Source of the DNA: a virus
Reading direction: 5' to 3' (one strand)
Length of the DNA: 60,451 nt
IMG/VR virus record: IMGVR_UViG_3300043449_000416
Span: 1-60,451 of that record
The notes below the pieces were generated by a model. The model had not been told where the DNA came from and ran no database searches. It worked only from the letters and a program-made list of their open reading frames with translations. A program made the position numbers and the translations under genes. Of the stretch, positions 1-59,213 are shown piece after piece (positions within the stretch are counted from its first letter, which is position 1; every line of letters begins with the position of its first letter).

Positions 1-126
1 TTACTTCTGGACGCACAGTGTTTGTATTTGCGGAACGCGCTATCGTATCCTGCAATAGGACATCATTTAGTGGAGAGCTGTTCGCCCGACGTACTCGTTC
101 TTGGAGATTAGGTAGCCCTTCGCGCC
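1..126. repeat. Terminal redundancy: nt 1-126 are identical to nt 60326-60451 (circular/permuted genome or assembly overlap)
   Basis: Direct comparison of the first and last lines of the window; an ORF reads in frame through the repeat. Confidence 0.85.
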
Positions 127-2055: not shown

Positions 2056-2525
2056 GGTAGATTTTCCCTGTACTGTTCGAGGGTCTCATGGTGCGTAAAG
2101 AAGCCCCGGACTTCCATGCTAACCGACTGCATGTAGTCCCGCCCCTTACATATATAGATAACATATGCAATGATCTCTGCATACCAGTCGCGAAGGACGT
2201 AGGAGAACACTCGGTCGTTTGCCGAGCCCTTCTCCAGCTTGTTGGCATCGAGCCAAGCGTTGATCCCTGTCACGATGATTGGAATCAGCTGGTGCTTGTA
2301 CTTATCAAAGAACGGGTTGAGAGGCAGCTCGGTCAGAGCGACAAAAAGCGTGCGGGCAATGTCTGCGTCGGTGACGGGCTTGTCCTTGTCGATGAGGTCG
2401 TCGAAAACCTCGCAGATGTCGCCAAACTGACGGATGAACCAGATGGCGTTCATATCGCCGGTCCACTCTACGAGCTTAGCGTCGCGTAGCTTCCGCCACT
2501 CTTCGGTGTCAAACTCAGGAGTCAT
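2052..2525 (-). CDS. Hypothetical protein (157 aa)
   Basis: ORF with 4-nt start/stop overlaps to both neighbours in the late operon. Confidence 0.5.
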   Translation of the reverse strand: MTPEFDTEEWRKLRDAKLVEWTGDMNAIWFIRQFGDICEVFDDLIDKDKPVTDADIARTLFVALTELPLNPFFDKYKHQLIPIIVTGINAWLDANKLEKGSANDRVFSYVLRDWYAEIIAYVIYICKGRDYMQSVSMEVRGFFTHHETLEQYRENLP

Positions 2526-3598: not shown

Positions 3599-3661
3599 GG
3601 CAGTTCCTCTAGCAAGTTTTACACAATTTAGCAGATGCCGCGCTATACGACAATCCGAAGC

Positions 3662-4762
3662 TCATAGCTGTTGCTGCGTTACGGTTACGATTATGGCAGG
3701 CCCTGCCGGATGGAAGGCGGTTGCCGCGAAGGCGTCAAGGCTAACGTTCGTGTCATCAGCCGCCCACATAACTCGGACATATTGGTTGGCCTCTAACGAC
3801 ACATCGTATGTCGCGGAGAACGGAAAATAGGTACCGGTCCCAGTGAGACTGATAGCCCGCGTGGTATCCGGCAGATTTGTGCCGTTCTTCTCCAGCCAGA
3901 TGTACACGCTCTTCGAGCTGGCATTAGTGGATGCGAGCTGAGCAGAGATATCGACGTGGTAGTACCCCGCCTGTGACGCCACAATCCTAGAGGCTGGAGT
4001 GCCGAGCGTAACCCCGTTCGAGATTTCGGTAGCCGTATAGGTCACCGCAGTGGCCGTATTTATAGCTGACAGAGTTTGGTCGGTGCTTGAGATGAATGTG
4101 CCGTAATCCAACCCAATCGGTATGGTCGGCCTAACCATAATTTCTCCGACGGTGGAGCTTACGGTTAGAACTGCAGCGACAGAGACCACCACATCCGGGG
4201 CCGTCGGACGGACCTTGGTAAACCGCCCAGCCGTCGTTGCGGAGGCGTATAGGATATCCCCTGCGACCCAAGTCTGGCTTACTGTGGAGCCCGTGGTATT
4301 TAGACCTCGGACTTTTCCGTAGACTGTGACCGCGCCGACGGCCTGATCGACCATCTCAAAGGTGGTGACGCCGACGAAGTACAGCTCCGGGATAGAGCCG
4401 TTGGCAATGTAGGGAGAGACATTGATCTCGCCGTTTACCCCGGCAAAGCCGACAACGGAGCCGTTCGGGATGGTAGACCCCGTATTGTTCCGGCACCGCA
4501 TGAAGGTCTCAAAGCCGATCTGCTGAGTGACGTCGTTCAGGTGCGTAAGGTTGAACGTGTCCTCGGCGGCGTTGTATGACAACTCCCCAGCATCGATTTT
4601 TTCACCAGACGGGTTTAACGTGACTGTCGTGAAGATCGCATCGCCCGGGTTATTGACCTGCTGCACAAATACCGAGAACGCACGGATGAGCTGGGCCATG
4701 TATTGACGGTTGTAGTTCTCCGGCGGCGTTGGAAAGAAGGGTGCTGGTGCATTACTCGGCAT
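3662..4762 (-). CDS. Putative tail fibre / receptor-binding protein
   Basis: 366-aa ORF rich in Thr/Ser/Gly/Asn/Val, typical of fibre proteins; follows a large tail protein gene. Confidence 0.45.
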   Translation of the reverse strand: MPSNAPAPFFPTPPENYNRQYMAQLIRAFSVFVQQVNNPGDAIFTTVTLNPSGEKIDAGELSYNAAEDTFNLTHLNDVTQQIGFETFMRCRNNTGSTIPNGSVVGFAGVNGEINVSPYIANGSIPELYFVGVTTFEMVDQAVGAVTVYGKVRGLNTTGSTVSQTWVAGDILYASATTAGRFTKVRPTAPDVVVSVAAVLTVSSTVGEIMVRPTIPIGLDYGTFISSTDQTLSAINTATAVTYTATEISNGVTLGTPASRIVASQAGYYHVDISAQLASTNASSKSVYIWLEKNGTNLPDTTRAISLTGTGTYFPFSATYDVSLEANQYVRVMWAADDTNVSLDAFAATAFHPAGPAIIVTVTQQQL

Positions 4763-9663: not shown

Positions 9664-10482
9664 TCACGCCGCGATGGTTGTCCAAATGGTCGGTGGAGTC
9701 GGCCCCACCGCTGTCCATGAATTTATAGCATCTGGATTGACTTCCGTCCATGTCGAACCGGGATTTGGCACGATACTGCCCCAAACTGTCGCCTGACCAA
9801 TACGGCCAGTGGCACTAACACCGAGCGGAATGACGTTAGCAGAGCCTGTGGCACCAAGGGTGCCGATTGCGCCAGTGGCAGAAACACTAGTAACTGCGGC
9901 GTTAACGTCGATAACTACAAGCACATTTCCGACTGCGTTAGTAGCAGAAACACCGACTAAAGTTAGGTTCGCATCGGCAGACACTGTAGCGTCGCCAACT
10001 TGACCTGTACCGCTTACGCCGGACACAAGGGCGTTAGCAGAGACCGTTACGGTAACGGTACCCACAAAACCACTTGCCACGACACCTTCAATGTCTGGGA
10101 ATACGGCGCTACCAAGCTGCCCGGTCGCTACCACTCCCGTAGGTGAAACGACGGCGGACCCAGAAACAGTAGGCGTTCCTGTCTGACCTGTCGCGGATAC
10201 ACCAACAAGAGAAGCTGTGACTGCTGCGCTTACAGCTACGGAGCCTACGGCACCTGTAGCCGCGACACCTGTGGGTGTGGTAACAGCACTGCCTGTTAGT
10301 GTAACGGAGCCTACGGCACCTGTAGCCGCGACACCCGTGGGTGTGATAACAGCGTTACCCGTTGCCGTAATGGAGCCTATAGAACCTGTAGCCGCAACAC
10401 CCGTAACAAGAACGGTGACGTTAACCGCCACTACCCCTATGTCGGCGAGGGGGGAAGATGCAAGTGGCGTAAAGCCTAGCAT
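9664..10482 (-). CDS. Repeat-containing fibre-like protein
   Basis: 272 aa with tandemly repeated peptide units (VAATGAVGSVTLTGSAVTTPTG...), mirrored by tandem nucleotide repeats. Confidence 0.45.
   Translation of the reverse strand: MLGFTPLASSPLADIGVVAVNVTVLVTGVAATGSIGSITATGNAVITPTGVAATGAVGSVTLTGSAVTTPTGVAATGAVGSVAVSAAVTASLVGVSATGQTGTPTVSGSAVVSPTGVVATGQLGSAVFPDIEGVVASGFVGTVTVTVSANALVSGVSGTGQVGDATVSADANLTLVGVSATNAVGNVLVVIDVNAAVTSVSATGAIGTLGATGSANVIPLGVSATGRIGQATVWGSIVPNPGSTWTEVNPDAINSWTAVGPTPPTIWTTIAA
10234..10347. repeat. Tandem roughly 57-bp direct repeat inside the fibre-like gene
   Basis: Unit gagcctacggcacctgtagccgcgacacc(t/c)gtgggtgtg(g/a)taacagc occurs twice in succession, with partial flanking copies. 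Confidence 0.6.
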
Positions 10483-30947: not shown

Positions 30948-31311
30948 ACCGAGAAAACATAGCCACTGGGCCGCTAGGCCGCGGCTAAAATTCCTCGGGG
31001 GCGTAGCCGAATTTGACCTGTGGTGGAGGGACGACCAGTCAGCGCCGGGTATCCCGAGCGGCGACATCCTGCCGTATTTGCGCTTGGTGACTATAGATAT
31101 GCCATCCGTAGACGACTGGGACGAGCTCCGCGTACCGCTGCATCTGAACGAGGAGACGAACTCAAGTATGGAGCCCGCGATGCGCAGACTCAAGGGCAGG
31201 TGGGGCTGTATAAATCTGACCCTAGCGCAGCTGGCCGAGATACGCACATACCTGCAATGCTTCGCCCCGTGGGTGTTAGGAGGAAGGCTAACAGATGGTC
31301 AACAAACATAA
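30940..31311 (+). CDS. Hypothetical protein (123 aa), paralog of 33211..33516
   Basis: Shares EPR...WAAR...FLGG...FDLW(W/F) and L..L...YL..FAPWV motifs with the 33211 ORF. Confidence 0.5.
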   Translation: MLEPRKHSHWAARPRLKFLGGVAEFDLWWRDDQSAPGIPSGDILPYLRLVTIDMPSVDDWDELRVPLHLNEETNSSMEPAMRRLKGRWGCINLTLAQLAEIRTYLQCFAPWVLGGRLTDGQQT

Positions 31312-31564
31312 CGGCAGCGGCAGCGGCTACGGCAGCGGCAGCGGCACCGGCAGCGGCACCGGCTACGGCAACGGCAGCGGCTACGGCAGCGGCAGCGGCA
31401 CCGGCTACGGCAACGGCAGCGGCTACGGCTACGGCACCGGCACCGGCTACGGCAGCGGCAACGGCAACGGCTACGGCGACGGCAGCGGCAACGGCTACGG
31501 CAGCGGCAACGGCAACGGCTACGGCGACGGCAGCGGCAACGGCTACGGCGACGGTAAGGGTTAG
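31295..31564 (+). CDS. Gly/Ser/Tyr/Asn-rich low-complexity repeat protein (89 aa)
   Basis: Translation is almost entirely (GSG/GNG/GYG)n, encoded by tandem ggcagcggc/tacggc/aacggc units; AGGAGG RBS upstream. Confidence 0.5.
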   Translation: MVNKHNGSGSGYGSGSGTGSGTGYGNGSGYGSGSGTGYGNGSGYGYGTGTGYGSGNGNGYGDGSGNGYGSGNGNGYGDGSGNGYGDGKG

Positions 31565-31604
31565 CGGATGGTCAATTCTAAAACTTGAAACTTAACAAAG
31601 GGTG

Positions 31605-31916
31605 ATGACAATGAAAGACGTAGTACTAAACAAAAAAGTCCTCGTGCGTAGCGACGCGAGCGGGGTGCACTTCGGAACATTGGTGGAATGGGATCACGAC
31701 ACCGTACACCTGCGTGATTCGCGGAGACTATGGGCATGGGATACCGGCGGAACAGGCATATCCCTGTCCGAGATCGCCATCTGTGGGGTCAAGCATGAGA
31801 CAAGCAAGATCACCATGCCTCTGCCTGATATCATTATTGTTGGCGTGTGCGAGATCATACCGTGCCACGGCATGGCCATAGCTACCATCGAGACCGCAGA
31901 AATGGCCAAGCCTTAG
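31605..31916 (+). CDS. Hypothetical protein (about 103 aa)
   Basis: ORF with upstream aaagggtg RBS-like sequence. Confidence 0.5.
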   Translation: MTMKDVVLNKKVLVRSDASGVHFGTLVEWDHDTVHLRDSRRLWAWDTGGTGISLSEIAICGVKHETSKITMPLPDIIIVGVCEIIPCHGMAIATIETAEMAKP

Positions 31917-31942
31917 TCGAGGGCCTAACAAGGAGAAATGAA

Positions 31943-32152
31943 ATGACGATACCCGAGTGCACCGACTGTGGGGCCGCGTTCTCCGAACGCCGAGCCGTGT
32001 TAGGTTACCGCCTATGTCTCACCTGCGGTGAGCAGGCGGCACGTGAAGTCAGGGCAGGTTGGTGTATTGCGCCAGTCGCCCATAAGCAGGGATCGACTCT
32101 CGTTACACAGCGCGAACAGCTGCGCGGGCTGAACAAAGTAGTGCCAACGTGA
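31943..32152 (+). CDS. Small Cys-rich protein (69 aa), zinc-ribbon-like
   Basis: CTDCG...CLTCG (two CxxC pairs); RBS acaaggagaaatgaaATG. Confidence 0.5.
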   Translation: MTIPECTDCGAAFSERRAVLGYRLCLTCGEQAAREVRAGWCIAPVAHKQGSTLVTQREQLRGLNKVVPT

Positions 32153-32172
32153 GGTAAATATCTCACATCTAT

Positions 32173-32201
32173 TGACATAGAGTGTCGTATAGTGTAGTAT
32201 A
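32173..32201 (+). promoter_or_regulatory. Sigma70-like promoter (TTGACA-N17-TAGTAT)
   Basis: -35 TTGACA at 32173-32178, -10 TAGTAT at 32196-32201, in the 148-bp intergenic gap upstream of 32301; flanked by tagtgta / gtgttg repeats. Confidence 0.45.
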
Positions 32202-32265
32202 GTGATATGTGTTGTTAGATTGTGTTGTGAATGTAGCGGGCCAAGCCCTTCAAATCAAATCAACT

Positions 32266-32283
32266 GTTAGGCCGGAGCCTAAC
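32266..32283. repeat. GTTAG-N-CTAAC hairpin family member (perfect palindrome)
   Basis: gttaggccggagcctaac followed by accaaggagaaactaaaATG. Confidence 0.6.
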
Positions 32284-32300
32284 ACCAAGGAGAAACTAAA

Positions 32301-33209
32301 ATGAACAACGTCACACAAATGGAACTGAACTTCGCACCTGTGGTGCAGTCAATCTCATCGTCGTCCATGCTGGTCGAGCTGGGCATCGGCGTATGGACCG
32401 GGCGGCGCATGGACAAGCGCGCATCCGAGGAAGTCGTCGCTGCCAACCATGCCGATAAGGGCGTGGCGCGGGTGACCAAGAGCCTACTGGGGGCCTGTGA
32501 TGAACTGGACGCGCTCGTGAAGTTCGCAGCAAACGTGCGGAACATCCACTACAACAGCACCCTGCCTTGGTCGGACATGGGCCCGCGTCTGCTCCCCACC
32601 CCGCGCTACTTCGCATACCACAAGAACATGAGCGCCTTGCAGACAGAGTTCTTCCGCATGGTGGACGCGTTCGTCGCTGCTTACGATCTTGAGGTGGCTG
32701 CGGCACAGGCCAAGCTGGGTGACCTGTTCGATGTTAGAGAGTACCCTAACGCCTCCGAGTTGCGTCAGAAGTTCTCGTTCAAGTTCAACTACATCCCCCT
32801 GCCTGACGCTGGCGACTGGCGGCTCGACATCAACAACGAAGCACTAACATCACTTCGGGACCAATACGCCACGCACTACACGGGACAGCTGACCGCGGCC
32901 ATGAACGACATCTGGAAACGCCTCTACGAAACGCTGACCACGCTGTCGCGCCAGCTATCCGACAAGACCGAGGATGGTAAAACGCCGCGCATCTTCGCCT
33001 CTGTGTTCGACCGCATGCAGGAGGTACTGGACCTGATGGAGACGTGCAACATGACGGGCGACATGACCATGCAGTTGATGCAGCGCAAGCTGGCAGCGGC
33101 CTTCAATGGGGTCAGCGCCGAGGCTGTCAAAGACGATGCCTACTTACGCCGTAACACAAAGCAGGCTATCGACGTGGCCATCAAGTCCCTGCCTAGCTTG
33201 GGCTGGTAA
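32301..33209 (+). CDS. Hypothetical protein (302 aa)
   Basis: Well-formed ORF with RBS; first gene after the internal promoter; precedes the MoxR/VWA block. Confidence 0.55.
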   Translation: MNNVTQMELNFAPVVQSISSSSMLVELGIGVWTGRRMDKRASEEVVAANHADKGVARVTKSLLGACDELDALVKFAANVRNIHYNSTLPWSDMGPRLLPTPRYFAYHKNMSALQTEFFRMVDAFVAAYDLEVAAAQAKLGDLFDVREYPNASELRQKFSFKFNYIPLPDAGDWRLDINNEALTSLRDQYATHYTGQLTAAMNDIWKRLYETLTTLSRQLSDKTEDGKTPRIFASVFDRMQEVLDLMETCNMTGDMTMQLMQRKLAAAFNGVSAEAVKDDAYLRRNTKQAIDVAIKSLPSLGW

Positions 33210-33210
33210 C

Positions 33211-33516
33211 ATGGAGCCGCGCTGGTACCGCGCGGCGTGGGCCCGCGAAGATCACACCTTCCTCGGGGGGACGAACGCATTCGACCTGTGGTTCGACGAA
33301 ACTCTGGACGTGCGGGTGGCGATGGGCGCTACGCCAGATAAATGGGACTGGTTCTACTGGTCCCGAGCACGTCAGAAGTATGAGTGGGGGACAGACGATA
33401 TGAGCCATGTCGACCACGACAAGGTGTTAGTCGAAGCCCTAACTTACCTGCGTATCTTTGCACCGTGGGTAGAAGAAGAAATGACCAAAGGAACGAAAGA
33501 ATATCACAGCGAATAG
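33211..33516 (+). CDS. Hypothetical protein (101 aa), paralog of 30940..31311
   Basis: MEPRWYRAAWARED..FLGG..FDLWF...LTYLRIFAPWV; carries a hairpin copy (33426-33443) at the same relative position as its paralog. Confidence 0.5.
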   Translation: MEPRWYRAAWAREDHTFLGGTNAFDLWFDETLDVRVAMGATPDKWDWFYWSRARQKYEWGTDDMSHVDHDKVLVEALTYLRIFAPWVEEEMTKGTKEYHSE

Positions 33517-33527
33517 GAGAAGAAAGA

Positions 33528-34133
33528 ATGACTAGAGTAACCAACGAGCTACGCCGCACTCTGCAGACCGCCATCATGAAAGACCTGCCAAGCCGGGATT
33601 ATACTAAGGAGATACACGCGCTGGTGCAGGGTGTCATCGCCGAGCACATGCCACCCAAGGTTAGATCCCTCTACGACAATACGGAGCTGCGCAGTTATTT
33701 GCGCTTAGATAATATCGAGGTGGTTAAAGGTAACGCTAGGGTTCCCCTGCATAGCACTGACTCTGCCTATGTGTATGGATTGACTAAATTTATGACCATC
33801 CGCATGGACGACGCCGAGAATGCTGTGAGGCTACCCGAGGGTTCACTCTACAGGTCAGTCGTGATCAAACTGCACGAGGCGGGCTCTGTCGCTGCCTACT
33901 TCGCACAGGAAGAACTTCGGGTAAGCGTGCGTAACCGTGTACGTGCTAACCTTGCAGCGGCAAGGACGTTCAAGCAACTCTATGCAAACCTCGAGCCCGA
34001 GCTGCACCACTACATCCCCAAGGATGAGGTCAAGGCACAGGTGCCTGCCTGTGTTGCGCCCGTGGTGGACGACCTGCGTAAGCTGGGCGCTGTTCTGCCG
34101 GAAACGCCGAAAGCTACGGGAGAGAAGCCATGA
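33528..34133 (+). CDS. Hypothetical protein (201 aa)
   Basis: ATG with RBS ataggagaagaaagaATG. Confidence 0.5.
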   Translation: MTRVTNELRRTLQTAIMKDLPSRDYTKEIHALVQGVIAEHMPPKVRSLYDNTELRSYLRLDNIEVVKGNARVPLHSTDSAYVYGLTKFMTIRMDDAENAVRLPEGSLYRSVVIKLHEAGSVAAYFAQEELRVSVRNRVRANLAAARTFKQLYANLEPELHHYIPKDEVKAQVPACVAPVVDDLRKLGAVLPETPKATGEKP

Positions 34134-34336
34134 CCTTCTGGTACGTCCTCATCATATCCTTCTCCGCCCCCTTTGAGGGCCTGTCCACCGTCGTGCCGTA
34201 TGCCGATCCGCAAGCCTGCGGGGAAGCTATCTTGGCTATTGAGGCAGCACTGTCTCATTCGGCGGGGATCAATGCAATTCAGTGCAAGGAGACGTCGGTC
34301 GCGATGTCATCGATCAGACCAAAGCGTCGGCCCTGA
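34130..34336 (+). CDS. Hypothetical small protein (68 aa), hydrophobic N-terminus
   Basis: ATGA-coupled to the upstream ORF; MTFWYVLIISFSAPF... Confidence 0.4.
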   Translation: MTFWYVLIISFSAPFEGLSTVVPYADPQACGEAILAIEAALSHSAGINAIQCKETSVAMSSIRPKRRP

Positions 34337-34372
34337 TATTAGTACTACGTGTAACTTGTATACCAACAACAA

Positions 34373-34390
34373 GTTAGGGCATCCCCTAAC
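34373..34390. repeat. GTTAG-N-CTAAC hairpin family member
   Basis: gttagggcatcccctaac, about 25 nt upstream of the MoxR-like gene. Confidence 0.6.
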
Positions 34391-34414
34391 GCCATCATCT
34401 AATGGAGAACTAGA

Positions 34415-35512
34415 ATGTCTAACCAAGCTGTAAACATGTACGCTGTCGGTCTTGATCAGATCGCCGCACTCATCAAGGCCACGGGCCACAAGCGCACCAC
34501 TCTGGTGCAGGGTCACATGGGCACCGGGAAATCCTCGCTGCTCCGCGCACTGTCGGCGGCACTGCCGACCCACACGCCGTGCTACTTTGACTGCACGACC
34601 AAAGACTTGGGTGACATCACCCTGCCGCGCATCGCCGAGGCTACCAAAGACGCCGCCTATGTTAGTTACGCGACTAACGAAGAACTTGGCGCGCATCACG
34701 GCGGGCCGATCATCCTGATGGTTGACGAGTATGGTAAGGCTAACCCATCCGTGAAGAACGCGCTGCTGCGTCTCATGCTCGAGCGTAAGATCGGCAGCTA
34801 CACCCTGCACCCTGACAGCATCATCTTTGCCACCACTAACCTTGGTGCCGAGGGCGTCGGTGACTTGTTGCCGCCCCATGCCCGTAACCGCATCACTGTC
34901 GTCACTGCCCGCAAGCCAAGCAACATGGAGTGGATCGAGTGGGGCATCAACGCTGGCGTGGATCACACCCTGCTTGGCTGGTGCAAAGACAATCCGCAGC
35001 TGTTCCACAGCTTCGACGACTACAAGAACCCCGACGACAACCCCTACATCTTCCACCCCAAGCAACAGCGCGCGGCCTTCGTTACGCCTCGCTCACTGGA
35101 AGCGGCATCGGATATCTTGAAGGAGCGGCTGCACTTCGACGACCAGACCACCACGGCTGCTCTCATGGGCACTATCGGTGAGCGCGGTGCGATGGACCTG
35201 ATGGCCTTCGTCAAGCTGGCGGATCAGCTGCCCTCGCTCGAGAGTATCAAGACTTCGCCCCAGACAGCCAAAGTGCCAACGTCTGCCGCCGCTGTGTGCA
35301 TGGTTGTGTATCGCACGCTGGCCACCATCGAGAAGGAGTGGATCGACAACTGGATGATCTACATGGACCGTCTCGATACCGAGGCGCAGGGTATGTTCGC
35401 CAACGGCGTGCGTGCACCGAAGTATGGCCGTCAGGCGTTGGTCATGACCAACAAGAACTTCACCCAGTGGGCTATGAGTAACAGCTACCTTTTCGCCGCT
35501 GATAAACGGTGA
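34415..35512 (+). CDS. MoxR-like AAA+ ATPase (CbbQ/NorQ/CobS-type)
   Basis: Walker A GHMGTGKSSL, Walker B IILMVDEYGKANPSVKNALLRLMLER, overall AAA_5-like layout; a hairpin copy lies inside at 34661-34678. Confidence 0.7.
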   Translation: MSNQAVNMYAVGLDQIAALIKATGHKRTTLVQGHMGTGKSSLLRALSAALPTHTPCYFDCTTKDLGDITLPRIAEATKDAAYVSYATNEELGAHHGGPIILMVDEYGKANPSVKNALLRLMLERKIGSYTLHPDSIIFATTNLGAEGVGDLLPPHARNRITVVTARKPSNMEWIEWGINAGVDHTLLGWCKDNPQLFHSFDDYKNPDDNPYIFHPKQQRAAFVTPRSLEAASDILKERLHFDDQTTTAALMGTIGERGAMDLMAFVKLADQLPSLESIKTSPQTAKVPTSAAAVCMVVYRTLATIEKEWIDNWMIYMDRLDTEAQGMFANGVRAPKYGRQALVMTNKNFTQWAMSNSYLFAADKR

Positions 35513-35516
35513 AGAC

Positions 35517-35720
35517 ATGGCAAAAAATAGTGGAAAGAAATGGAGCTCCGCGGAGCTGACCAAACTGTTCTTCTATTGGAAAGAAGGCGAAACCTTTGAG
35601 ACGATAGCAAAACGGTTGGGCCGCACTAAGGGCGCGGTCCAGCAAAAACTATACGAATACGACATACACACAGACGAGCGTATCCGTGAGAGCGCCGCAG
35701 ATGGAGACGACGATGTTTAA
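35517..35720 (+). CDS. Small helix-turn-helix DNA-binding protein (67 aa)
   Basis: WSSAELTKLFFYWKEGETFETIAKRLGRTKGAVQQKL resembles an HTH; acidic tail. Confidence 0.45.
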   Translation: MAKNSGKKWSSAELTKLFFYWKEGETFETIAKRLGRTKGAVQQKLYEYDIHTDERIRESAADGDDDV

Positions 35721-36972
35721 TATAGGTAAACCACTCAGCGCCGAACAGCGCCTGCAGAAGGCCGTGATCGACATCATGGCCAACAACAAATACATCGCCC
35801 TTGCGGGCATCCTGATGATCGGCAATCGCAGCGTCGAGGATGATGTTAGGCAATGCCCTACCGCCTACACCAACGGGCGGGACGAGGTCTATGGTCGTGA
35901 CTTCGTCGATAAACTCAACGACGCCGAGCTACGCTTCCTAGTGCTGCACGAGTGCTATCACAAACTCTATCGGCACCTGACCACGTGGCGCTGGATGTAT
36001 GAAGAGAACGCTCAGCTGGCCAACCAAGCCTGTGACTTCGTCATTAACATCAAGCTGGTCGATGACAACAAGACCGACAACTTTGCCACCATGACAGGCG
36101 TGCTCAAGATCGGCTGTCTCGACGAGAAGTACCGTGCATGGGACAGCGCACAGGTGTTCCATGACCTCAAGAAGGGTGGCGGTAAGGGTCAGGGTCAGGG
36201 TCAGGGTCAGGGTCAGGGTCAGGGTCAGGGTCAGGGTCAGGGTCAGGGTCAGGGTGGCGAGGGCACTGGTTTCGATGAGCACGGCTGGGACGACGCCAAG
36301 GATATGACCGCGCAGGAGCGGGATGAGTTGGCCCGTGAGATTGACGAAGCGATCCGTCAGGGCGCGCTGATGGCTGGCAAGATGGGCTCTGGCGGTGACC
36401 GGGACTTGGTCGAGTTGCTCCAACCGCAGGTGGATTGGCGCGAGGTGCTACGTGACTTCATCACCAGCACATGTGCGGGGTCTGACTACTCCACGTGGCG
36501 TAAACCCAATCGACGTTACATCGGCGCTGGCGTGTATATGCCGAGTGGTATCTCCGAGCAGATCGGCGAGATCGTGGTGGCTATCGACACGTCCGGCTCT
36601 ATCGGAGGGCCCCAGCTATCCGCCTTCTTGTCCGAGGTGGGCAGCATCGCCGAAACCGTTAACCCCGAGGCTATCCGCCTCCTCTACTGGGACACGCGGG
36701 TCTGCGGCGACGAGACTTACAAGGGAGAGGAAGTGGCCAACCTCACCAAGTCGACCAAGCCCAAGGGCGGCGGCGGCACCACAGTGGAGTGCGTGCCACA
36801 GTATCTGCAGGACCAGCAGATCAAGGCTCAGTGCGTCATCGTGCTGACTGATGGCTATCTGGGTGGATCGTGGGGCGAGTGGCACCACCCGCTCCTGTGG
36901 GTCATCCTCGACAACAAGAACGCCGTGCCTAGCGTGGGCACAGCTGTGCACATCAAGCAGCGGGAGATGTAG
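35701..36972 (+). CDS. VWA-domain protein with N-terminal HExxH metallopeptidase-like motif (partner of the MoxR-like ATPase)
   Basis: HECYH (HExxH) near the N-terminus; MIDAS-type VAIDTSGSIGG; (GQ)n linker; the MoxR plus VWA pairing is a known two-gene module. Confidence 0.65.
   Translation: METTMFNIGKPLSAEQRLQKAVIDIMANNKYIALAGILMIGNRSVEDDVRQCPTAYTNGRDEVYGRDFVDKLNDAELRFLVLHECYHKLYRHLTTWRWMYEENAQLANQACDFVINIKLVDDNKTDNFATMTGVLKIGCLDEKYRAWDSAQVFHDLKKGGGKGQGQGQGQGQGQGQGQGQGQGQGGEGTGFDEHGWDDAKDMTAQERDELAREIDEAIRQGALMAGKMGSGGDRDLVELLQPQVDWREVLRDFITSTCAGSDYSTWRKPNRRYIGAGVYMPSGISEQIGEIVVAIDTSGSIGGPQLSAFLSEVGSIAETVNPEAIRLLYWDTRVCGDETYKGEEVANLTKSTKPKGGGGTTVECVPQYLQDQQIKAQCVIVLTDGYLGGSWGEWHHPLLWVILDNKNAVPSVGTAVHIKQREM
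36181..36258 (+). repeat. (GGTCAG)n hexanucleotide microsatellite encoding a poly-Gly-Gln linker
   Basis: About 11 perfect tandem GGTCAG units from 36187 to 36252, in frame within the VWA gene. Confidence 0.85.
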
Positions 36973-52895: not shown

Positions 52896-55800
52896 TTAGA
52901 AGAGCTGGAACCCTTGGTTGTACATCCCCTCCAGATCGATCAGGGCTTCCCGTACTATCGGGTTGATCGACACACCACTCGACATTTCCTTAGACGTGCG
53001 TTGGTGGCTCTTAAGCGAGTCTTTGAGGAACTCCCCATCAATAACTGCTTCGGGAAACCGGTCTTTGATCTCCGCATTGAACGCACGGATATCAGCCATA
53101 GCTTCTTGTGCGCCCTCGATGTCGCCCTGACGTAGTGCGATGTAGTAGAGTTTTGACAGTTCCGAGCGCTTCTTGGAGACCTCGTTGCTGATCCTAACCT
53201 TGAGTTGGTTAATGTCCTGCTGCAGCGTGGCCTTCGTTGGCGTAAAGCCAAGCATCTGTCCTAGCAAATCACTGGAACCAAGATCGCCAGTGATGACGTC
53301 CTTACGCCGCGTCTCGATGGAAGCGCCATCGGCCAGATAACGCCCCGCTTTGATGAAGTTACGGACTGCCGCTGGTACCATGTTCTCAATGCCACGCACC
53401 ATGTCGCCTTCCCCGCCAGTCATGGCCGTATAGAACTCCGAGATACCACGACCGAACTGCGTTGCAGTAGACCATGCAGGGCCTCCGATAGCCGCCACAA
53501 GGGTTTCTTCTGCCGACGCATCGGTGTTGTAGCGGTTTTCACGGAGCAAGAGCCCGGTAAGCCCGATACGGGACGAGATGTCGAACCCAGATATGTCCGA
53601 CAGGAAGCCTTTATAAATTCCTTCACCGAGATAGCGACGTGTCAGCATGTCTGCATCTTCCTCGTCATCGCCGAGGAACGCGTTTGCTACCGTGGACACA
53701 AGCCCATAGAGGGGCACACCTGCGATACCGGCAAAGGCAAAAGACGATAGCTGCAGACCAACAAGCTGCTTAAAAGCTACCCGCCGATCTTCTGGTGTGA
53801 AGTCAGGATCATTACTACCTAGCGTCAACTGCTTTATAAGCTTCATCTGCATGTAAAACAGCGAAAGCCCGAAGTTTTTGTACATGAGAGCTACGCGCCC
53901 GATACCCTTCTGGGCCCAGCGCGGTGCGGTAGCGAGAGTAGAACCACCACCCGTTTCAGTTGCCTGATATACAGCGCGCTCGGCAGCGCGGGTGCGTCGT
54001 TGGTCTTCGGTGAGCCCACGCTCAGCTTCGGTTGGCTTGTTCCGCAGACGGGCGAGTTCGAGATTATAGGCCGCGACGAGAGTAACCTGACGGTTGGCGC
54101 GTTCAACTTGGTGAAACAAGGCACCGGATATGGCAGAGAAACGATCACCGAAGCTCCGCGCGCGTCCAACATCCTCGGCACCGATGCTATCGTAATAAAT
54201 CGAGCGGTTCAGCTGCCCGTTCTTAGACGCAACATCCACAAGAGGGGCGAGTTCCTGCAGCATCGGGCGAAGTTCCGGTGCGATGTCGTCGCGCAGGACG
54301 TACTCGTTATTACTATTCAAGACGAAGTAGTTGTCTATGGACGGCATAGCCCGAACCTTGGTTGTCTTCTGCCCTTCAAACTGCGCAGGGAGTTCGATCT
54401 CACGGCTAAGGCCACTGTTCAGGAATAGCTTATAGGCACTGCCGATTGCAGCGGCAGATGATCGGCTGCCATAACGCCCAGCTAAGTACGGGTAGAGCAC
54501 AACGGGGACTGACGACAAGTTCACCAGCGCCGAGGACACGTTCAAGCCAATAGTAAACGTAAAGGCCCCACGGTTAACTGTCTGCACCATGCGCTCGAGC
54601 ATATCGGCAGGGGGGTTAGTGGCAAAGTTGGCACGGGCAACGAGCTCCTCGACTACCGCTACCTTGTTCTGGTCATTGGTATTTCTTGCCTGATCCTGAA
54701 TGGCATCCGACACGGCTCTGATCTTGTTGCTGTAGGCGTAGCGGACACCCTGTCGTCCAAGGCTGTAACCCTTAACGCGAAGTGCCTCCAACGAGTCCTC
54801 CATGTAGCCACGCGTATTCTTACGCCGCTGCAAAGACTTAGCAAACGATGTTTCCGGTAGCGCATCTACAAAGAGTTTGGTGATCTCCTGCTGAATGCTC
54901 GAGGCTGTAGCTGCATCCACCCCGGTGTTGGCGAGATTGGACCGGATAATAGACAGCGTGTCACGCACAAATAGAGAGTCCGGTGTACGCCCCTGCCGCA
55001 CCACGTCGAGCGTGGAGTAGTAGTTAAAGATTGGTTTCCCATCTGGGCCCTTGGTAACTTCCGACATAGCCTCGAGTTCTTTGGCGGCGCGGTCACGCGC
55101 ACGGGGGCTTTCGTAAGCCTCCTTTACAGGCTCAGTGGTGTTGGTCTCGGGGTCAAAGGCGGAATATTCTAACCAGTAGTCGCCCTTACGAGCCAGCGGG
55201 AAGTACGGCTCGATGCGGTTCATGTCGAAGAACTTTGTGTAGATGCTCTGCTTTACCTCAGCGGCTAGCGTGGGGTTGGATGAGAGAATAAAGTCAATTT
55301 TGCCCGAGAGAGCCTCGCGCAGGCGCTCGTACTGCTTGCGGTACAGCTGGCGCATGTTGTTATAGAGATCATGCCCATCCCTACCAATAGCGGCCCAGTC
55401 CTTCTGCAGTGCGTCATACATACGCATTTTGTCGGAGTCGGCACCGTACTTCTTTAGGGCCTTCTCGCGGGTCAGAGACGGATCGACTTGGTTGACTGTG
55501 GAGCGCGTGACGACGCGGTCGAACAGCGGCTTGAGGTTGGGGTTGTTCTTCACCCACTTCTGGGCGATCTGCAGAACGCCATCTACCTCTTGGTCAGACT
55601 TGACAGCAGCTGCATCCATCTGCTGGACGCCGTCCTGTAGATCATAGGCACCGTCAATCTTGTAGTGTGCGGCCACGTCGGCCAAAGGCTGCATCCCCAT
55701 AAACCCGAGAACGGTGCGCTTCGCGCCCCAAGATGCGCCAGACAAAACACTAGAGGCGTCGTCGCCGAACTGTTGAGCAAACTCCTTGGTACGGCCCGGG

Positions 55801-58800
55801 AAGGAGCCGTCGATCTGCGCTACGCGATTAAGGATCGTTGCGCCCTCTTCCGGCGTGGAGATGTCGGTCACGCTGATTGGGAAATCGAGTATCTGCATGA
55901 CCATCTGGTCGGTAATGTCGAGAGCGCTACGCAGCTGCCTTGGCTGCAAACCGATAAGTCTACGGACAAGGTTAATGATCTCGTTTGTGAACCGCTGTAC
56001 CGCAGATATAGGTTTACCATCAGGGTACAGTTGGGACAGTTCGCGTTGAAACTGCGGGTCAGAGAAAGCATCAGCGACAAACTCGAACAGATTTTTCTGT
56101 CCATTTAGTTGACCCAGTTTCGGTGCCACATCAGCAAATATTTGCTCCATGCGTTTGCGCATAGGGGAGGCTTCGTTGAGCAGCTCTCGTGCCGTAGCAG
56201 CGTGCGTCATCTCGTGCAGCAGTGTCGCGACGTCCATACCATAGACAGAATCCAACAAAAGCTCGCTCGTCTGGCGGCGATTAGTTAGACGATACTGTCC
56301 GCTTATTTCAGCCCCGTTGCGGTCGTCGCGTAGATCATCCACGATTCGCACCGAGGTGCCCGTCGCGTAGGGAGCCAGCGCACGGACAATACGCTTGATA
56401 CGGTCATTAGGCGCGTACATCTGCAGGGCGCGAAGCGCTAGCTCGAGATTACCACGGCGTAGCTGATTGACCACTGCCGGGTGCAGGGGGGAGCCAAGGT
56501 CCAGAACGTCTTGTGGGCGGTTAAACCGTAGCCCAAGGATTTGATCAGTAACGAAGTCGATCTGGTCTTCTGCCGTCATCTTCCGCATGCCCGCGGCACG
56601 TTTCTGCGGGGGCACCTTAGTCTCTTGGACTGCGCCCAATAGGGCATCGAGTCCCTTTCCACCAAGAGATACGAGACGCTGCCCCTCTGCTTTTTGTGCG
56701 GCCTTGGTCTTAGCTTGAGCAGTCAGTTCCTGCTCGAGCGCGGCTCTTTCCTCGGTGTTGGCCGCGCGTCCACCGATAGCGGTAGAACTAGGCAAAGATG
56801 ATACAGCCCGCATTGGCACCTTGGCCTCTTGGGCTTTGCGGTACTTTCGTTGCAGGTCACGTACTTTGACCTGCGCCTGCGGGGACATGTTAGCCTCTAC
56901 CCACGCGAGAGCTTGCTTAGCGCGCTCTTGGGTCATACCCGAGAAGAACTCGCGCTCCGCAGGGCTGATTGTCTCGTCACCTGCAGGCAACGCGCCGGTT
57001 TCAGTTTCGAGCGCTTTCTGATTTTTGAACCGCTGGTTCTTTAGCGTGGCGTCGGCAACGATGAACTCGAGAGCATCGATGGGGCGTTTGAACTGCGAGA
57101 AGTACATCTGCGCGTTCTCGGCAGGGGCCATACCCTTCTTGCCCTTCTTGATAGCACCGGGCTGGAGCAGCCCGAGCACTCTACGCTTATCTTCCGACGT
57201 CGTCGGATCATCCAGAACAAGTGCGTCGGGGGTCGAATATTCGTCGATGAGCGAAGCCAGTTCCGGTTTATCTGCCATGCGTGCGGTCCACGCAGCCTCG
57301 AGTTCGCTCTGCGCAGCCGAGTTGGATGCAACCTCACGGACGTCGCGCATAGGTGCCAGCTGACGCTGAGCATCACGGACCTGTAGTTCAGTCGGAGAAC
57401 CCGTAAACGCGGGGGCAGTCAGTGCAGGGCGCTCTGTTCCCGCTGCTGTATCAGCAGCCACAGGCACCGACATATCTCCTCCCAGTCCTCCGCCCGTAGG
57501 TGTTTCAGTCCCGGTGGAGCCTGTAGCGATGCTATCGACCCCTCCGCTTCCTTCCACGCTTGGTCCACCACTCGGAACGCCAACTCCCACTTCTTCTGGT
57601 TTAACCGCTGCAGCCTCGGGGACATTTGGGGCCTCCTGCTTGGGGGCAATAGCCGGTGCTTCCGGTGCGGGCTGTCCAGTGATAAGCCGCGCGACGAGCG
57701 CTTTGTTCGCGGCGGTAGCCTTATCATTTTGCGCCCAGCGGTTGAGCGTCCTAACAACAGCGCTGTCTGTTAGGGGTTTCCCTACCATCTTACGCAACGG
57801 CGCTGATTTAGCCGTGCCAACGCCGAGCTGCGTCACAAGATCATCGGTCAAAACTGGCACAGTTGATTCGGCGGATACGATACCCGGCACTGTCTCCGCT
57901 GGGAGGACTTCGGATTTTGCAACGGCCTCATTCGTGACAGGAACTGCCGCTTTTGGCACCGCAGTCGCCGTAGCTTTCGGCACGGTGGTGGGTTTTTTCT
58001 TGAGTGTTGGTTCGACTGGAACTTCTGCCGGGACAGCGGCGGCTTCGAGGCCAAGAGAGAGCTGTTCTTCTTCGGGTGTAGGCTGCAGTTCCAACTTAGC
58101 TGGCAGCACTGAGCCTCCTACCTCGGGGGCAGTGGGGAGGAACAACTCACCTTGCTCCTGTCCGGTCACAAACCCCGGACGCGTAGACGGCGTTAGGGGT
58201 AACTCCATCTGAGTTTGTAGATCGGCGGGATTAATAGTAGCCGTAGCAGCTCCCGGCGCTTCTCTAAGGCGAGGGCCACCGACTGCGCCGCCGATACCAC
58301 CAGCAGCGACACCGAGGACACCGCCAGCCACACCGGCGTCGATATATTCTTGGATAGCATCGGGGCTGTCAACTGGCAGACCCGCCTGATAGCGCTCTAA
58401 TATCTGCTGGCCAACTTCATTTAGGGATTCCGTTGTGCCGCCAACCGCTGCGCCAGACAGGGCCCGGGTAAACAGTTTGGCACCGGGGCGAACAAAGACA
58501 CCTGCACCTGCCAACGCATTAGTTACAGCGGTAATCCCAGCCTGCCCAACTGTGGAGCCGAGGGCGTCGGTTAGATCAACAGCGTCTCTACGGCCCGCTG
58601 CAACTTCTTCCTCTTGGCGCTGCACGTTAGCACCGAACAGCATCGGGGCCTCAGTAAGACCAGAGCCGATACCGAAACCAGCCAAAGCCCCCGCTGGGCC
58701 TCCGAAGCTACCAACAGCAGCGCCAACAGCGCCACCCGCCAGACTCGTACCGAGCTGAGGCAACTGCTCGCCTGCCAATTCACCAGCGTATGTAAGCCCC

Positions 58801-59213
58801 GCGCCAATAGTTGGGAAGAAACCTTCGGCAGCAACAACATCTTGACGCGTAGTCGGTGCAGGCTGCAGAAGGCTTAGCTCAAACTGGCGCTGCGCAGCTG
58901 CGTCTTCCATACCCCGGCCATATTCGGCGATGCTGGGCAGTCCAACCTGCTGACCGATAGTCTCTATAGTAGTGCCAAAGAGGGACTTTGCGCTGGCCTT
59001 GCCGCGCTCAAGACCGCGACCAAGAGCTGTACCATCGTCCGGTTGCGCTAAAGGTTTGCCGAGCGTCGCTTCGTATTCCGTAGCAAACGCACGTTCTTGC
59101 TCGTCCAAATATGCACGGATGCGCGCCTGCTCTGTCTCAGAGGGAGTATCACCCTTGATATTAACGCTGTAGGTCTTCCCGCTTAGACGGCCCGGAACCT
59201 GAATAATACCCAT
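52896..59213 (-). CDS. Giant virion-associated protein (2105 aa) with internal HExxH motif
   Basis: Single uninterrupted ORF; Gly/Ala-rich N-terminal third; HEMTH (HExxH) at ...LLDSVYGMDVATLLHEMTHAAT...; last gene of the late operon. Confidence 0.6.
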   Translation of the reverse strand: MGIIQVPGRLSGKTYSVNIKGDTPSETEQARIRAYLDEQERAFATEYEATLGKPLAQPDDGTALGRGLERGKASAKSLFGTTIETIGQQVGLPSIAEYGRGMEDAAAQRQFELSLLQPAPTTRQDVVAAEGFFPTIGAGLTYAGELAGEQLPQLGTSLAGGAVGAAVGSFGGPAGALAGFGIGSGLTEAPMLFGANVQRQEEEVAAGRRDAVDLTDALGSTVGQAGITAVTNALAGAGVFVRPGAKLFTRALSGAAVGGTTESLNEVGQQILERYQAGLPVDSPDAIQEYIDAGVAGGVLGVAAGGIGGAVGGPRLREAPGAATATINPADLQTQMELPLTPSTRPGFVTGQEQGELFLPTAPEVGGSVLPAKLELQPTPEEEQLSLGLEAAAVPAEVPVEPTLKKKPTTVPKATATAVPKAAVPVTNEAVAKSEVLPAETVPGIVSAESTVPVLTDDLVTQLGVGTAKSAPLRKMVGKPLTDSAVVRTLNRWAQNDKATAANKALVARLITGQPAPEAPAIAPKQEAPNVPEAAAVKPEEVGVGVPSGGPSVEGSGGVDSIATGSTGTETPTGGGLGGDMSVPVAADTAAGTERPALTAPAFTGSPTELQVRDAQRQLAPMRDVREVASNSAAQSELEAAWTARMADKPELASLIDEYSTPDALVLDDPTTSEDKRRVLGLLQPGAIKKGKKGMAPAENAQMYFSQFKRPIDALEFIVADATLKNQRFKNQKALETETGALPAGDETISPAEREFFSGMTQERAKQALAWVEANMSPQAQVKVRDLQRKYRKAQEAKVPMRAVSSLPSSTAIGGRAANTEERAALEQELTAQAKTKAAQKAEGQRLVSLGGKGLDALLGAVQETKVPPQKRAAGMRKMTAEDQIDFVTDQILGLRFNRPQDVLDLGSPLHPAVVNQLRRGNLELALRALQMYAPNDRIKRIVRALAPYATGTSVRIVDDLRDDRNGAEISGQYRLTNRRQTSELLLDSVYGMDVATLLHEMTHAATARELLNEASPMRKRMEQIFADVAPKLGQLNGQKNLFEFVADAFSDPQFQRELSQLYPDGKPISAVQRFTNEIINLVRRLIGLQPRQLRSALDITDQMVMQILDFPISVTDISTPEEGATILNRVAQIDGSFPGRTKEFAQQFGDDASSVLSGASWGAKRTVLGFMGMQPLADVAAHYKIDGAYDLQDGVQQMDAAAVKSDQEVDGVLQIAQKWVKNNPNLKPLFDRVVTRSTVNQVDPSLTREKALKKYGADSDKMRMYDALQKDWAAIGRDGHDLYNNMRQLYRKQYERLREALSGKIDFILSSNPTLAAEVKQSIYTKFFDMNRIEPYFPLARKGDYWLEYSAFDPETNTTEPVKEAYESPRARDRAAKELEAMSEVTKGPDGKPIFNYYSTLDVVRQGRTPDSLFVRDTLSIIRSNLANTGVDAATASSIQQEITKLFVDALPETSFAKSLQRRKNTRGYMEDSLEALRVKGYSLGRQGVRYAYSNKIRAVSDAIQDQARNTNDQNKVAVVEELVARANFATNPPADMLERMVQTVNRGAFTFTIGLNVSSALVNLSSVPVVLYPYLAGRYGSRSSAAAIGSAYKLFLNSGLSREIELPAQFEGQKTTKVRAMPSIDNYFVLNSNNEYVLRDDIAPELRPMLQELAPLVDVASKNGQLNRSIYYDSIGAEDVGRARSFGDRFSAISGALFHQVERANRQVTLVAAYNLELARLRNKPTEAERGLTEDQRRTRAAERAVYQATETGGGSTLATAPRWAQKGIGRVALMYKNFGLSLFYMQMKLIKQLTLGSNDPDFTPEDRRVAFKQLVGLQLSSFAFAGIAGVPLYGLVSTVANAFLGDDEEDADMLTRRYLGEGIYKGFLSDISGFDISSRIGLTGLLLRENRYNTDASAEETLVAAIGGPAWSTATQFGRGISEFYTAMTGGEGDMVRGIENMVPAAVRNFIKAGRYLADGASIETRRKDVITGDLGSSDLLGQMLGFTPTKATLQQDINQLKVRISNEVSKKRSELSKLYYIALRQGDIEGAQEAMADIRAFNAEIKDRFPEAVIDGEFLKDSLKSHQRTSKEMSSGVSINPIVREALIDLEGMYNQGFQLF

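What the first reader, a model, noticed from the sequence alone, without database searches (positions are those of the whole stretch)
36181..36258. Perfect (GGTCAG)x11 microsatellite inside the VWA gene
Eleven uninterrupted hexamer repeats encode a (GQ)n linker between the metallopeptidase-like and VWA domains. Perfect microsatellites are prone to slippage. Hexamer units preserve the reading frame, so this could be a tunable linker length.
Basis: seen in the sequence. Interest (0 to 1): 0.45.

Follow-up and report, generated by a model that had tools for sequence, protein, structure and literature searches.

The report
Expanded Gly-Gln microsatellite in phage linker
A perfect eleven-copy six-base repeat sits in a floppy, glycine-rich tether of a phage metallopeptidase–VWA protein; related phages gain and lose repeat units at this same spot, so it is an ordinary, recently expanded coding microsatellite, not a demonstrated switch.

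Summary
(GGTCAG)x11 is perfect at window 36187-36252, in frame, and encodes (GQ)11 in a 419-aa DUF2201_N/VWA-like protein (35713-36972). This gene lies downstream of a MoxR-like AAA+ ATPase in a ~60 kb phage genome distantly related to N4-like phages. The repeat lies in a 34-aa segment that AlphaFold2 predicts to be disordered (pLDDT ~27). That segment follows the HExxH core. It falls inside the Pfam DUF2201_N envelope and about 100 residues before the VWA domain.

Among 201 relatives this segment is 11-49 aa long and rich in G and Q, between highly conserved flanks. Of 298 pairs that are at least 95% identical outside it, 157 differ in its length, often by whole repeat units: (GGCTCA)2/3/4, (CAGGGG)2/3/4, ±GGQ. 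Other lineages expanded GQ at the same site: L122 (GQ)11, L091 (GGTCAG)7, L090 (GGTCAG)7.

The best explanation is recent replication slippage in a linker that tolerates length change but keeps its composition. The change is probably nearly neutral. Adaptive "tuning" is not shown, and in-frame units cannot switch the gene on or off. Heterogeneity within the read population could not be tested. The repeat is also the only G-quadruplex motif in the window. Interest is modest: a new member of a known kind.

The parts
36187..36252 (+). Perfect (GGTCAG)x11 core of the microsatellite, encoding (GQ)11
   Evidence: Direct reading; TRF; 0 expected by chance
36169..36270 (+). Whole variable linker-coding segment, 34 aa: KKGGGK(GQ)11GGEGTG. 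It lies between the conserved flanks WDSAQVFHDL and FDEHGWDDA.
   Evidence: Alignment of 201 family members. AF2 pLDDT is below 50 for residues 157-187.
36186..36254 (+). Three tandem canonical G-quadruplex motifs (G3N3)x4, which are the repeat read as (GGGTCA)n. These are the only such motifs on either strand of the window.
   Evidence: Regex scan and ViennaRNA folding with the G-quadruplex option: -39.5 versus -11.9 kcal/mol for the repeat as RNA. Sequence-level prediction only.
35713..36972 (+). Host gene of 419 aa: zincin-like HExxH domain (HECYH), disordered linker, helical segment, and VWA/MIDAS domain (DTSGS)
   Evidence: Pfam PF13203 at 7.8e-32 and PF09967 at 1.3e-13; PHROG 1314; start codon chosen by agreement with homologues of 396-425 aa; AF2 model; Foldseek matches to MIDAS/VWA domains
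34415..35512 (+). Upstream partner gene: MoxR-like AAA+ ATPase (365 aa)
   Evidence: Pfam AAA_5/AAA/AAA_3 hits; PHROG 1297 'ATPase' at 3.2e-46; same gene order in N4-like phages, where the gene is annotated as MoxR-like ATPase
35517..35720 (+). Small 67-aa ORF between the ATPase and the VWA gene, overlapping the VWA start by 8 nt
   Evidence: ORF list. The same arrangement is called in relatives. It has only a weak helix-turn-helix-like hit.

Best explanation
The repeat is a young, in-frame coding microsatellite. It arose by replication slippage (strand misalignment) inside an intrinsically disordered, Gly/Gln-rich tether of a phage metallopeptidase-VWA protein that is the presumed cofactor of the adjacent MoxR-like AAA+ ATPase.

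Shown here:
- The tether exists in every family member.
- Its composition is kept (G 37%, Q 14%, almost no hydrophobic residues).
- Its length is free between about 11 and 49 aa.
- Close relatives differ by whole repeat units.
- Different lineages have grown different hexamers, or the same one, at the same site.
- This copy is perfect at the DNA level, meaning there has been no synonymous decay and the expansion is recent.

Inferred:
- The proto-repeat was a short (GQ)2-4 seed like those seen in relatives, for example KKGGGK(GQ)3GAGTG in P0029.
- Slippage added units because each gain or loss is in frame and the tether tolerates it.
- The length change is neutral or nearly so.
- The array will go on gaining and losing units until point mutations interrupt it.
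For: - The repeat is real and non-random.
- It is in frame in a conserved gene with Pfam DUF2201_N and DUF2201 domains.
- Linker residues 157-187 have pLDDT about 27, between confident domains.
- In 201 homologues the linker is 11-49 aa. The flanks are 85-100% conserved at many columns.
- Of 298 pairs at least 95% identical outside the linker, 203 differ in the linker and 157 in its length. P0105 and L015 are 100% identical outside it and differ by one GGQ.
- Unit-wise series occur at the DNA level: (GGCTCA)2/3/4 in L005-8/L009/L004 and (CAGGGG)2/3/4 in L012,14/L011/L013.
- GQ expanded at the same site in other lineages: L091 (57% identity, (GGTCAG)x7), L090/L113 (23% identity, x7), and L122 (61% identity, (GQ)11 coded by (GGGCAAGGTCAG)x4 + (GGTCAG)x3).
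- Shorter GQ runs in relatives use mixed synonymous codons (L116-L118), whereas this run is perfect.
- Cultured N4-like phages have a Gly-rich variable segment at the homologous site.
- Phage hexanucleotide SSRs are known to be concentrated in coding regions (PMC6426759).
Against: No reads were available, so ongoing slippage in this phage population is not shown. No near-identical strain with another copy number was found in IMG/VR or JGI metagenomes, and the exact protein is not on record elsewhere. Neutrality is inferred from length tolerance and was not measured. Recurrent expansion of GQ specifically, twice to 11 units, could also reflect selection for a long GQ tether. The 11-copy count rests on one assembly.
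Confidence: 0.75

Rival explanations
1. Adaptive tunable tether. Repeat-number changes are selected because the length of the tether between the zincin domain and the helical/VWA part sets the reach or effective concentration of the peptidase on the MoxR-VWA complex. On this view the phage population keeps a mix of lengths.
For: Length varies among close relatives by repeat units. GQ runs of at least 7 arose in at least four lineages at the same site, twice reaching 11 units. Four loci from three distinct homologues, out of 33 IMG/VR stretches with (GGTCAG) at 6 copies or more, fall in this one gene family. Composition is conserved although the sequence is not.
Against: A 11-49 aa range across otherwise conserved proteins argues for tolerance, not fine tuning. 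The changes are in frame, so there is no ON/OFF switching. The gene is an intracellular replication-module gene, not a host-contact protein. No heterogeneity within a sample was demonstrated. The recurrence is also what mutation bias predicts, because any Gly-rich GGN-CAG seed is slippage-prone.
Confidence: 0.12
2. Nucleic-acid-level element. Read as (GGGTCA)n, the repeat forms G-quadruplexes in the sense-strand DNA or the mRNA. These would act as a translational pause at the domain boundary or as a replication or transcription barrier, and the peptide would be secondary.
For: The only three canonical G4 motifs on either strand of the 60 kb window are in this repeat. The predicted RNA G4 fold is -39.5 kcal/mol, against -11.9 without G4. 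The expansions in L091, L090 and L013 also create runs of G3-4 tracts.
Against: Any Gly (GGN) after Gln (CAG) gives a GGG tract, so the G4 potential is an automatic by-product of the peptide and codon usage. Many relatives code the same linker with GGCTCA, GGACAA or GGCCAA and have no G3 tracts. No experimental or comparative signal shows conservation at the nucleotide level.
Confidence: 0.05
3. Assembly artefact. The repeat, or its copy number, was produced or distorted by short-read assembly.
For: The Logan k=31 assembly of SRR35180140 breaks exactly at this repeat and at the other hexamer array. This shows that such arrays are hard for assemblers.
Against: Both flanks run into at least 4 repeat units in independent contigs. 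The tract is 71 nt, shorter than typical reads. The reading frame is intact, and relatives carry similar arrays at the same site.
Confidence: 0.05

Closest known systems
In-frame coding microsatellites (tri-/hexanucleotide SSRs) in low-complexity, disordered protein linkers of prokaryotes and phages
   Same: It has perfect tandem units whose size is a multiple of three. It sits in a disordered, hydrophilic segment. Relatives differ in copy number by whole units. The apparent life cycle runs from seed to expansion to decay by point mutation. Phage hexanucleotide SSRs are biased to coding regions (PMC6426759), and low-complexity regions in prokaryotic and phage proteomes have been surveyed (PMC6821194, listed, abstract only).
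   Different: It is unusually long and perfect for a phage. No relative among the 80 IMG/VR loci exceeds 4 perfect hexamer copies. Only 33 stretches of DNA in the 2.9 million IMG/VR contigs carry 6 or more copies of this hexamer.
Phage MoxR AAA+ / metallopeptidase-vWA chaperone-cochaperone pair (Iyer et al. 2021, Viruses 13:63; Pfam DUF2201_N + DUF2201; PHROG 1314/1297)
   Same: The architecture matches: an N-terminal HExxH peptidase-like domain fused to a VWA domain, next to a MoxR-like ATPase. The gene order matches that in N4-like Schitoviridae.
   Different: Identity to cultured phages is only about 29-31%. Here the pair lies in the replication/early gene block. The function (virion-assembly chaperone with proteolytic processing) is a published proposal and has not been tested. 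The published description does not mention the variable linker.
Rea1/Midasin (MDN1): MIDAS domain tethered to an AAA+ ring by a long unstructured D/E-rich linker
   Same: The C-terminal domain of the model matches MDN1/Rea1 MIDAS structures. More distant family members have a D/E/Q-rich acidic tether of 40-49 aa at this site. The idea of a MIDAS-type domain working with an AAA+ ATPase through a flexible tether is shared; this last point comes from my own knowledge of Rea1.
   Different: In Rea1 the linker joins the AAA+ ring and the MIDAS domain in one polypeptide. Here the ATPase is a separate protein, and the tether separates the peptidase core from the helical+VWA part. This is an analogy only; no homology of the linker is claimed.
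Bacterial/phage contingency loci (phase-variable SSRs)
   Same: It is a long, perfect SSR inside an ORF and is expected to be hypermutable by slippage.
   Different: The unit is 6 nt, so changes never shift the frame and there is no ON/OFF switching. The gene is not a surface or host-recognition gene. See the membership test.

Membership tests
In-frame coding microsatellite in a disordered linker | Head-to-tail perfect copies of a 1-6 nt unit, more than expected by chance | tested here: met
   11 perfect GGTCAG units. TRF score 143. 0 matches expected in shuffles.
In-frame coding microsatellite in a disordered linker | Unit length is a multiple of 3 and lies inside an expressed reading frame | tested here: met
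   The 6-nt unit is in frame in ORF 35713-36972, which has 120 homologues listed at 65-88% identity, of 6249 with E <= 1e-10. Expression itself was not tested.
In-frame coding microsatellite in a disordered linker | The encoded segment is structurally disordered or low-complexity and lies between folded parts | tested here: met
   AF2 pLDDT is about 27 for residues 157-187. The flanking domains score 80-96. Prediction only.
In-frame coding microsatellite in a disordered linker | Copy-number polymorphism among close relatives at the same site | tested here: met
   157 of 298 near-identical pairs differ in linker length. Series of 2/3/4 units occur at the DNA level.
In-frame coding microsatellite in a disordered linker | Copy-number heterogeneity within one population (reads) | not testable with these tools
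   There is no access to reads. The Logan contigs only show a repeat of at least 5 copies in SRR35180140.
Contingency locus / phase-variable SSR | Repeat-number change switches expression (frameshift in the ORF, or altered promoter spacing) | tested here: not met
   The unit is 6 nt and any gain or loss keeps the frame. The repeat is 470 nt inside the ORF, not in a promoter.
Contingency locus / phase-variable SSR | Lies in a gene for a surface, host-interaction or modification function under fluctuating selection | tested here: not met
   The gene is a MoxR-partner metallopeptidase-VWA in the replication-gene block.
DUF2201_N/DUF2201 metallopeptidase-VWA protein (MoxR cofactor) | Matches to both Pfam models above their gathering scores | tested here: met
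   PF13203 scores 111.4 bits (cut-off 23.2). PF09967 scores 51.6 bits (cut-off 26.4).
DUF2201_N/DUF2201 metallopeptidase-VWA protein (MoxR cofactor) | HExxH zinc-binding motif | tested here: met
   H79-E80-C-Y-H83 is present, with H79, E80 and H83 invariant in 53 sequences. Catalysis was not tested.
DUF2201_N/DUF2201 metallopeptidase-VWA protein (MoxR cofactor) | VWA fold with a MIDAS DxSxS motif | tested here: met
   D292-T-S294-G-S296 is invariant. Foldseek matches MIDAS/VWA/integrin I domains with probability 1.00.
DUF2201_N/DUF2201 metallopeptidase-VWA protein (MoxR cofactor) | Adjacent MoxR-type AAA+ ATPase gene | tested here: met
   The ATPase gene is at 34415-35512 (AAA_5/AAA_3/AAA hits, PHROG 1297). 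The same synteny in phage nACB1 is annotated 'MoxR-like ATPase'. The Pfam scores are weak, so assignment to the MoxR subfamily is by synteny and PHROG.
G-quadruplex-forming sequence | Four or more G3+ tracts separated by loops of 1-7 nt | tested here: met
   There are 12 GGG tracts with 3-nt TCA loops, giving three non-overlapping motifs at 36186-36254.
G-quadruplex-forming sequence | Actual folding in vitro or in vivo, with a functional effect | not testable with these tools
   Only a thermodynamic prediction is available.

The most novel reading that the evidence does not exclude
The recurrent growth of long GQ arrays at this one site may be selected rather than neutral. The arrays are x11 here, (GQ)11 in L122, x7 in L091 and x7 in the very distant L090. 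On this reading the phage family uses a slippage-prone tether as a heritable but rapidly reversible 'length dial' between the zincin peptidase core and the helical/VWA module that docks on the MoxR-like ATPase. This would diversify substrate reach within a population. The G-quadruplex-forming mRNA/DNA might additionally pace translation at the domain boundary or raise the slippage rate.
Probability: 0.08. Interest if true: 0.55.

Novelty: new member of a known kind. Interest (0 to 1): 0.27.

Why it matters
This is a clean natural example of the microsatellite life cycle inside a phage protein. The same interdomain site repeatedly seeds, expands and loses different hexamers while the flanks stay fixed.

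Three practical points follow:
1. The locus could serve as a strain-typing marker for this phage group.
2. It breaks short-k assemblies, so copy numbers in metagenome-assembled phage genomes should not be trusted without spanning reads.
3. It marks the boundary of a flexible tether in the poorly understood MoxR/metallopeptidase-VWA module of N4-like and related phages, which helps in designing constructs for structural work.

It does not, on present evidence, reveal a new regulatory mechanism.

Tried and rejected
1. Near-identical strains with other copy numbers. Megablast against cultured phages found nothing. Exact flank patterns in IMG/VR and JGI metagenomes found nothing. Exact-protein look-ups of the VWA protein (419 and 428 aa) and the DNA polymerase found nothing. 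Only Logan run SRR35180140 carries identical neighbouring genes, and its contigs break in the repeat.
2. Minus-strand ORF 35938-36423, (TL)n, 161 aa. I rejected it as a shadow of the repeat inside a conserved + strand gene.
3. Start codon GTG 35686 (428 aa). I rejected it in favour of ATG 35713, because homologues are 396-425 aa and begin at the equivalent Met, with the same 8-nt overlap with the upstream small ORF.
4. Sequence search of the PDB with the family profile gave no meaningful hit. Only the fold search was informative.
5. The literature search for DUF2201 in phages gave only incidental mentions.
6. Phase-variation reading: rejected because the unit preserves the frame.
7. The PHROG/GenBank label 'HNH endonuclease' for this family: rejected, since the protein has HExxH plus VWA/MIDAS and no HNH match.
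8. My synonymous-recoding control for the G4 energy (GGC-CAA) was uninformative, because that sequence forms a strong GGCC hairpin.

Full report
**Observation.** The window reads GGTAAG, then eleven uninterrupted GGTCAG units at 36187-36252, then GGTGGC. Tandem Repeats Finder reports 36181-36255, period 6, 12.5 copies, 98% matches. Three-unit probes match ten times here and nowhere else in the window, with zero matches in 100 dinucleotide-preserving shuffles. Its coordinates simply include the imperfect edge units.

**Gene context.** The repeat is in frame in a + strand ORF. Homologues are 396-425 aa and start at the equivalent Met, so the start is ATG 35713, giving 419 aa. Pfam gives DUF2201_N 'putative metallopeptidase' (7.8e-32) and DUF2201 'VWA-like' (1.3e-13). 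The HExxH motif (H79-E80-C-Y-H83) and the MIDAS-type D292-T-S294-G-S296 are invariant in 53 aligned sequences. Directly upstream lie an AAA+ ATPase (34415-35512; PHROG 1297) and a 67-aa ORF.

The window as a whole is a phage genome. It has terminase, portal, DNA polymerase, helicase and primase genes and about 55% GC. The closest cultured phages are N4-like Schitoviridae at only 29-31% protein identity. They share the order MoxR-like ATPase, small ORF(s), metallopeptidase/VWA, helicase. Iyer et al. (Viruses 2021, PMC7824862) described such a phage MoxR/metallopeptidase-vWA pair and proposed a role as a virion-assembly chaperone. That proposal is untested.

**Where the repeat sits in the protein.** An AlphaFold2 model built on a 53-sequence alignment shows:
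- a confident N-terminal domain (residues 1-156);
- a stretch with pLDDT about 27 (157-187), which is exactly the Gly/Gln segment;
- a helical region of medium to low confidence (193-271);
- a confident alpha/beta domain (284-419).

The last domain matches MIDAS/VWA structures such as MDN1/Rea1 MIDAS, integrin I domains and NorD. The repeat therefore encodes a predicted disordered tether. It lies inside the Pfam DUF2201_N envelope and about 100 residues before the VWA domain.

**Relatives.** A protein search returned 120 metagenomic homologues at 65-88% identity, and IMG/VR gave 80 loci. In a joint alignment of 201 sequences, the segment between the conserved flanks (…WDSAQVFHDL and FDEHGWDDA…) is 11-49 aa long. 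Its composition is 37% Gly and 14% Gln, with the rest mostly K/S/D/N/E/T/P. The window has 34 aa.

The flanks are highly conserved. Among 298 pairs that are at least 95% identical outside the segment, 203 differ within it and 157 differ in its length. Many of these differences are whole repeat units:
- P0105 and L015 are 100% identical elsewhere and differ by one GGQ.
- L005-8, L009 and L004 carry (GGCTCA)2, 3 and 4.
- L012/L014, L011 and L013 carry (CAGGGG)2, 3 and 4.

**How unusual this copy is.** In the 80 IMG/VR loci the longest perfect hexamer run in the linker has 4 copies. In the 201 peptides the next-longest dipeptide run has 5. Relatives with (GQ)3-4 mostly encode it with mixed synonymous codons: GGTCAA/GGCCAA/GGTCAA in L116/L117 and GGGCAG/GGTCAA/GGTCAA/GGCCAA in L118. 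The window's 11 units are identical. That points to a recent expansion. The nearest plausible seed is KKGGGK(GQ)3GAGTG in P0029, which is 80% identical overall.

**Recurrence.** (GGTCAG) at 6 or more copies occurs in only 33 stretches of DNA in IMG/VR's 2.9 million contigs. Four of these loci (three distinct homologues) are the same linker in this gene family:
- L091, 57% identical, with 7 copies;
- L090 and L113, a very distant member at 23% identity (HEAAH, VAIDTSGS), with 7 copies.

A degenerate scan of JGI metagenomes added L122, which is 61% identical. It also encodes (GQ)11, but through (GGGCAAGGTCAG)x4 + (GGTCAG)x3. Cultured N4-like phages have a Gly-rich, non-alignable stretch at the same place. 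A variable hydrophilic tether is therefore a family trait. GQ arrays appear to have grown in it separately in several lineages, judged from their divergence and different coding.

**Mechanism.** The data fit the standard microsatellite life cycle. A short Gly-X seed in a length-tolerant disordered tether expands by replication slippage. Every change is in frame, so it is not purged. Point mutations later degrade the array. The shown parts are the disorder (predicted), the length and unit polymorphism, the conserved composition, the perfection of this copy, and the recurrence. The inferred parts are slippage as the process, near-neutrality, and continuing instability in this phage. I put about 0.75 on this reading.

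**Rival readings.**
- *Adaptive tuning of tether length (about 0.12).* This is not excluded. The repeated rise of long GQ arrays is suggestive, but mutation bias predicts the same, and a 11-49 aa range argues for tolerance.
- *Phase variation.* This is excluded, because hexamer changes cannot shift the frame.
- *Assembly artefact (about 0.05).* This is unlikely for the existence of the repeat. Independent Logan contigs carry both flanks running into at least 4 units. However, the count of 11 rests on one assembly, and the k=31 Logan assembly breaks at the array.
- *A nucleic-acid-level role (about 0.05).* Read as (GGGTCA)n, the array gives three tandem canonical G-quadruplex motifs. These are the only ones on either strand of the 60 kb window. 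The predicted RNA G4 energy is -39.5 kcal/mol, against -11.9 without G4. This follows automatically from CAG-GGN codon junctions, and relatives using other codons lack it.

**What could not be done.** No reads were available. No near-identical strain with a different copy number was found in IMG/VR or JGI metagenomes, and exact-protein look-ups found nothing further. Heterogeneity within the population therefore remains untested.

**Verdict.** This is a real, unusually long and perfect, recently expanded in-frame microsatellite in a disordered tether of a phage metallopeptidase-VWA protein. Its variability among relatives is demonstrated. Functional 'tuning' is not. It is a new member of a known kind, of modest interest (0.27).

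Noticed in passing
window 31295-31564 (+); array 31310-31554: There is a free-standing 89-aa ORF with a good Shine-Dalgarno site (AGGAGG about 10 nt upstream). It is almost entirely (Gly-X)n: MVNKHNGSGSGYGSGSGTGSGTGYGNGSGYG...GDGKG. It is encoded by an imperfect hexamer array of about 41 copies, or a 24-nt period x10. It has no significant Pfam match. This is a second and much longer Gly-X repeat in the same phage, of unknown function.
   Followed up: partly
L081 (Logan SRR35180140_856593) 1-4687 = window ~31527-36213; L082 start: The Logan k=31 contig begins inside the 31310-31554 array and ends inside the GGTCAG array. The next contig starts inside the GGTCAG array. Both hexamer arrays fragment short-k assemblies, so copy numbers in such assemblies are unreliable.
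   Followed up: yes
window 36186-36254 (+): Read as (GGGTCA)n, the repeat contains the only canonical G-quadruplex motifs (G3N1-7 x4) on either strand of the whole window: three in tandem on the sense strand. The unit is a cyclic permutation of TCAGGG, which I recall (own knowledge, not checked here) as a human telomere variant repeat.
   Followed up: partly
window 35713-36972 and GenBank phage records H3-H40: PHROG 1314 and many GenBank/RefSeq N4-like phage records label this family 'HNH endonuclease'. The protein has HExxH plus VWA/MIDAS and no HNH match. This looks like a propagated misannotation.
   Followed up: partly
L122 5718-5765 (Ga0181347_1002017): A 61%-identical homologue encodes (GQ)11 through a higher-order (GGGCAAGGTCAG)x4 array followed by (GGTCAG)x3. 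This suggests two rounds of expansion with different unit sizes.
   Followed up: partly
window 35938-36423 (-): This 161-aa minus-strand ORF containing (TL)n is a shadow of the repeat inside the conserved + strand gene and is not a gene.
   Followed up: yes
window 10238-10404: A 66-nt period tandem repeat (2.5 copies, 86% matches) lies inside the minus-strand ORF 9664-10482 in the structural gene block.
   Followed up: no
window 52896-59213 (-): A 2105-aa ORF has a C-terminal part that matches giant phage proteins, including PHROG 10089 'DarB-like antirestriction' and PHROG 11358. It may be a large virion-packaged protein.
   Followed up: no
window 36271-36288 (residues 187-192, FDEHGW): Immediately after the variable tether, F187, D188, H190 and W192 are invariant in the 53-sequence alignment. 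They are not conserved in N4-like phages. Whether D188/H190 contribute to the metal site is unknown.
   Followed up: no
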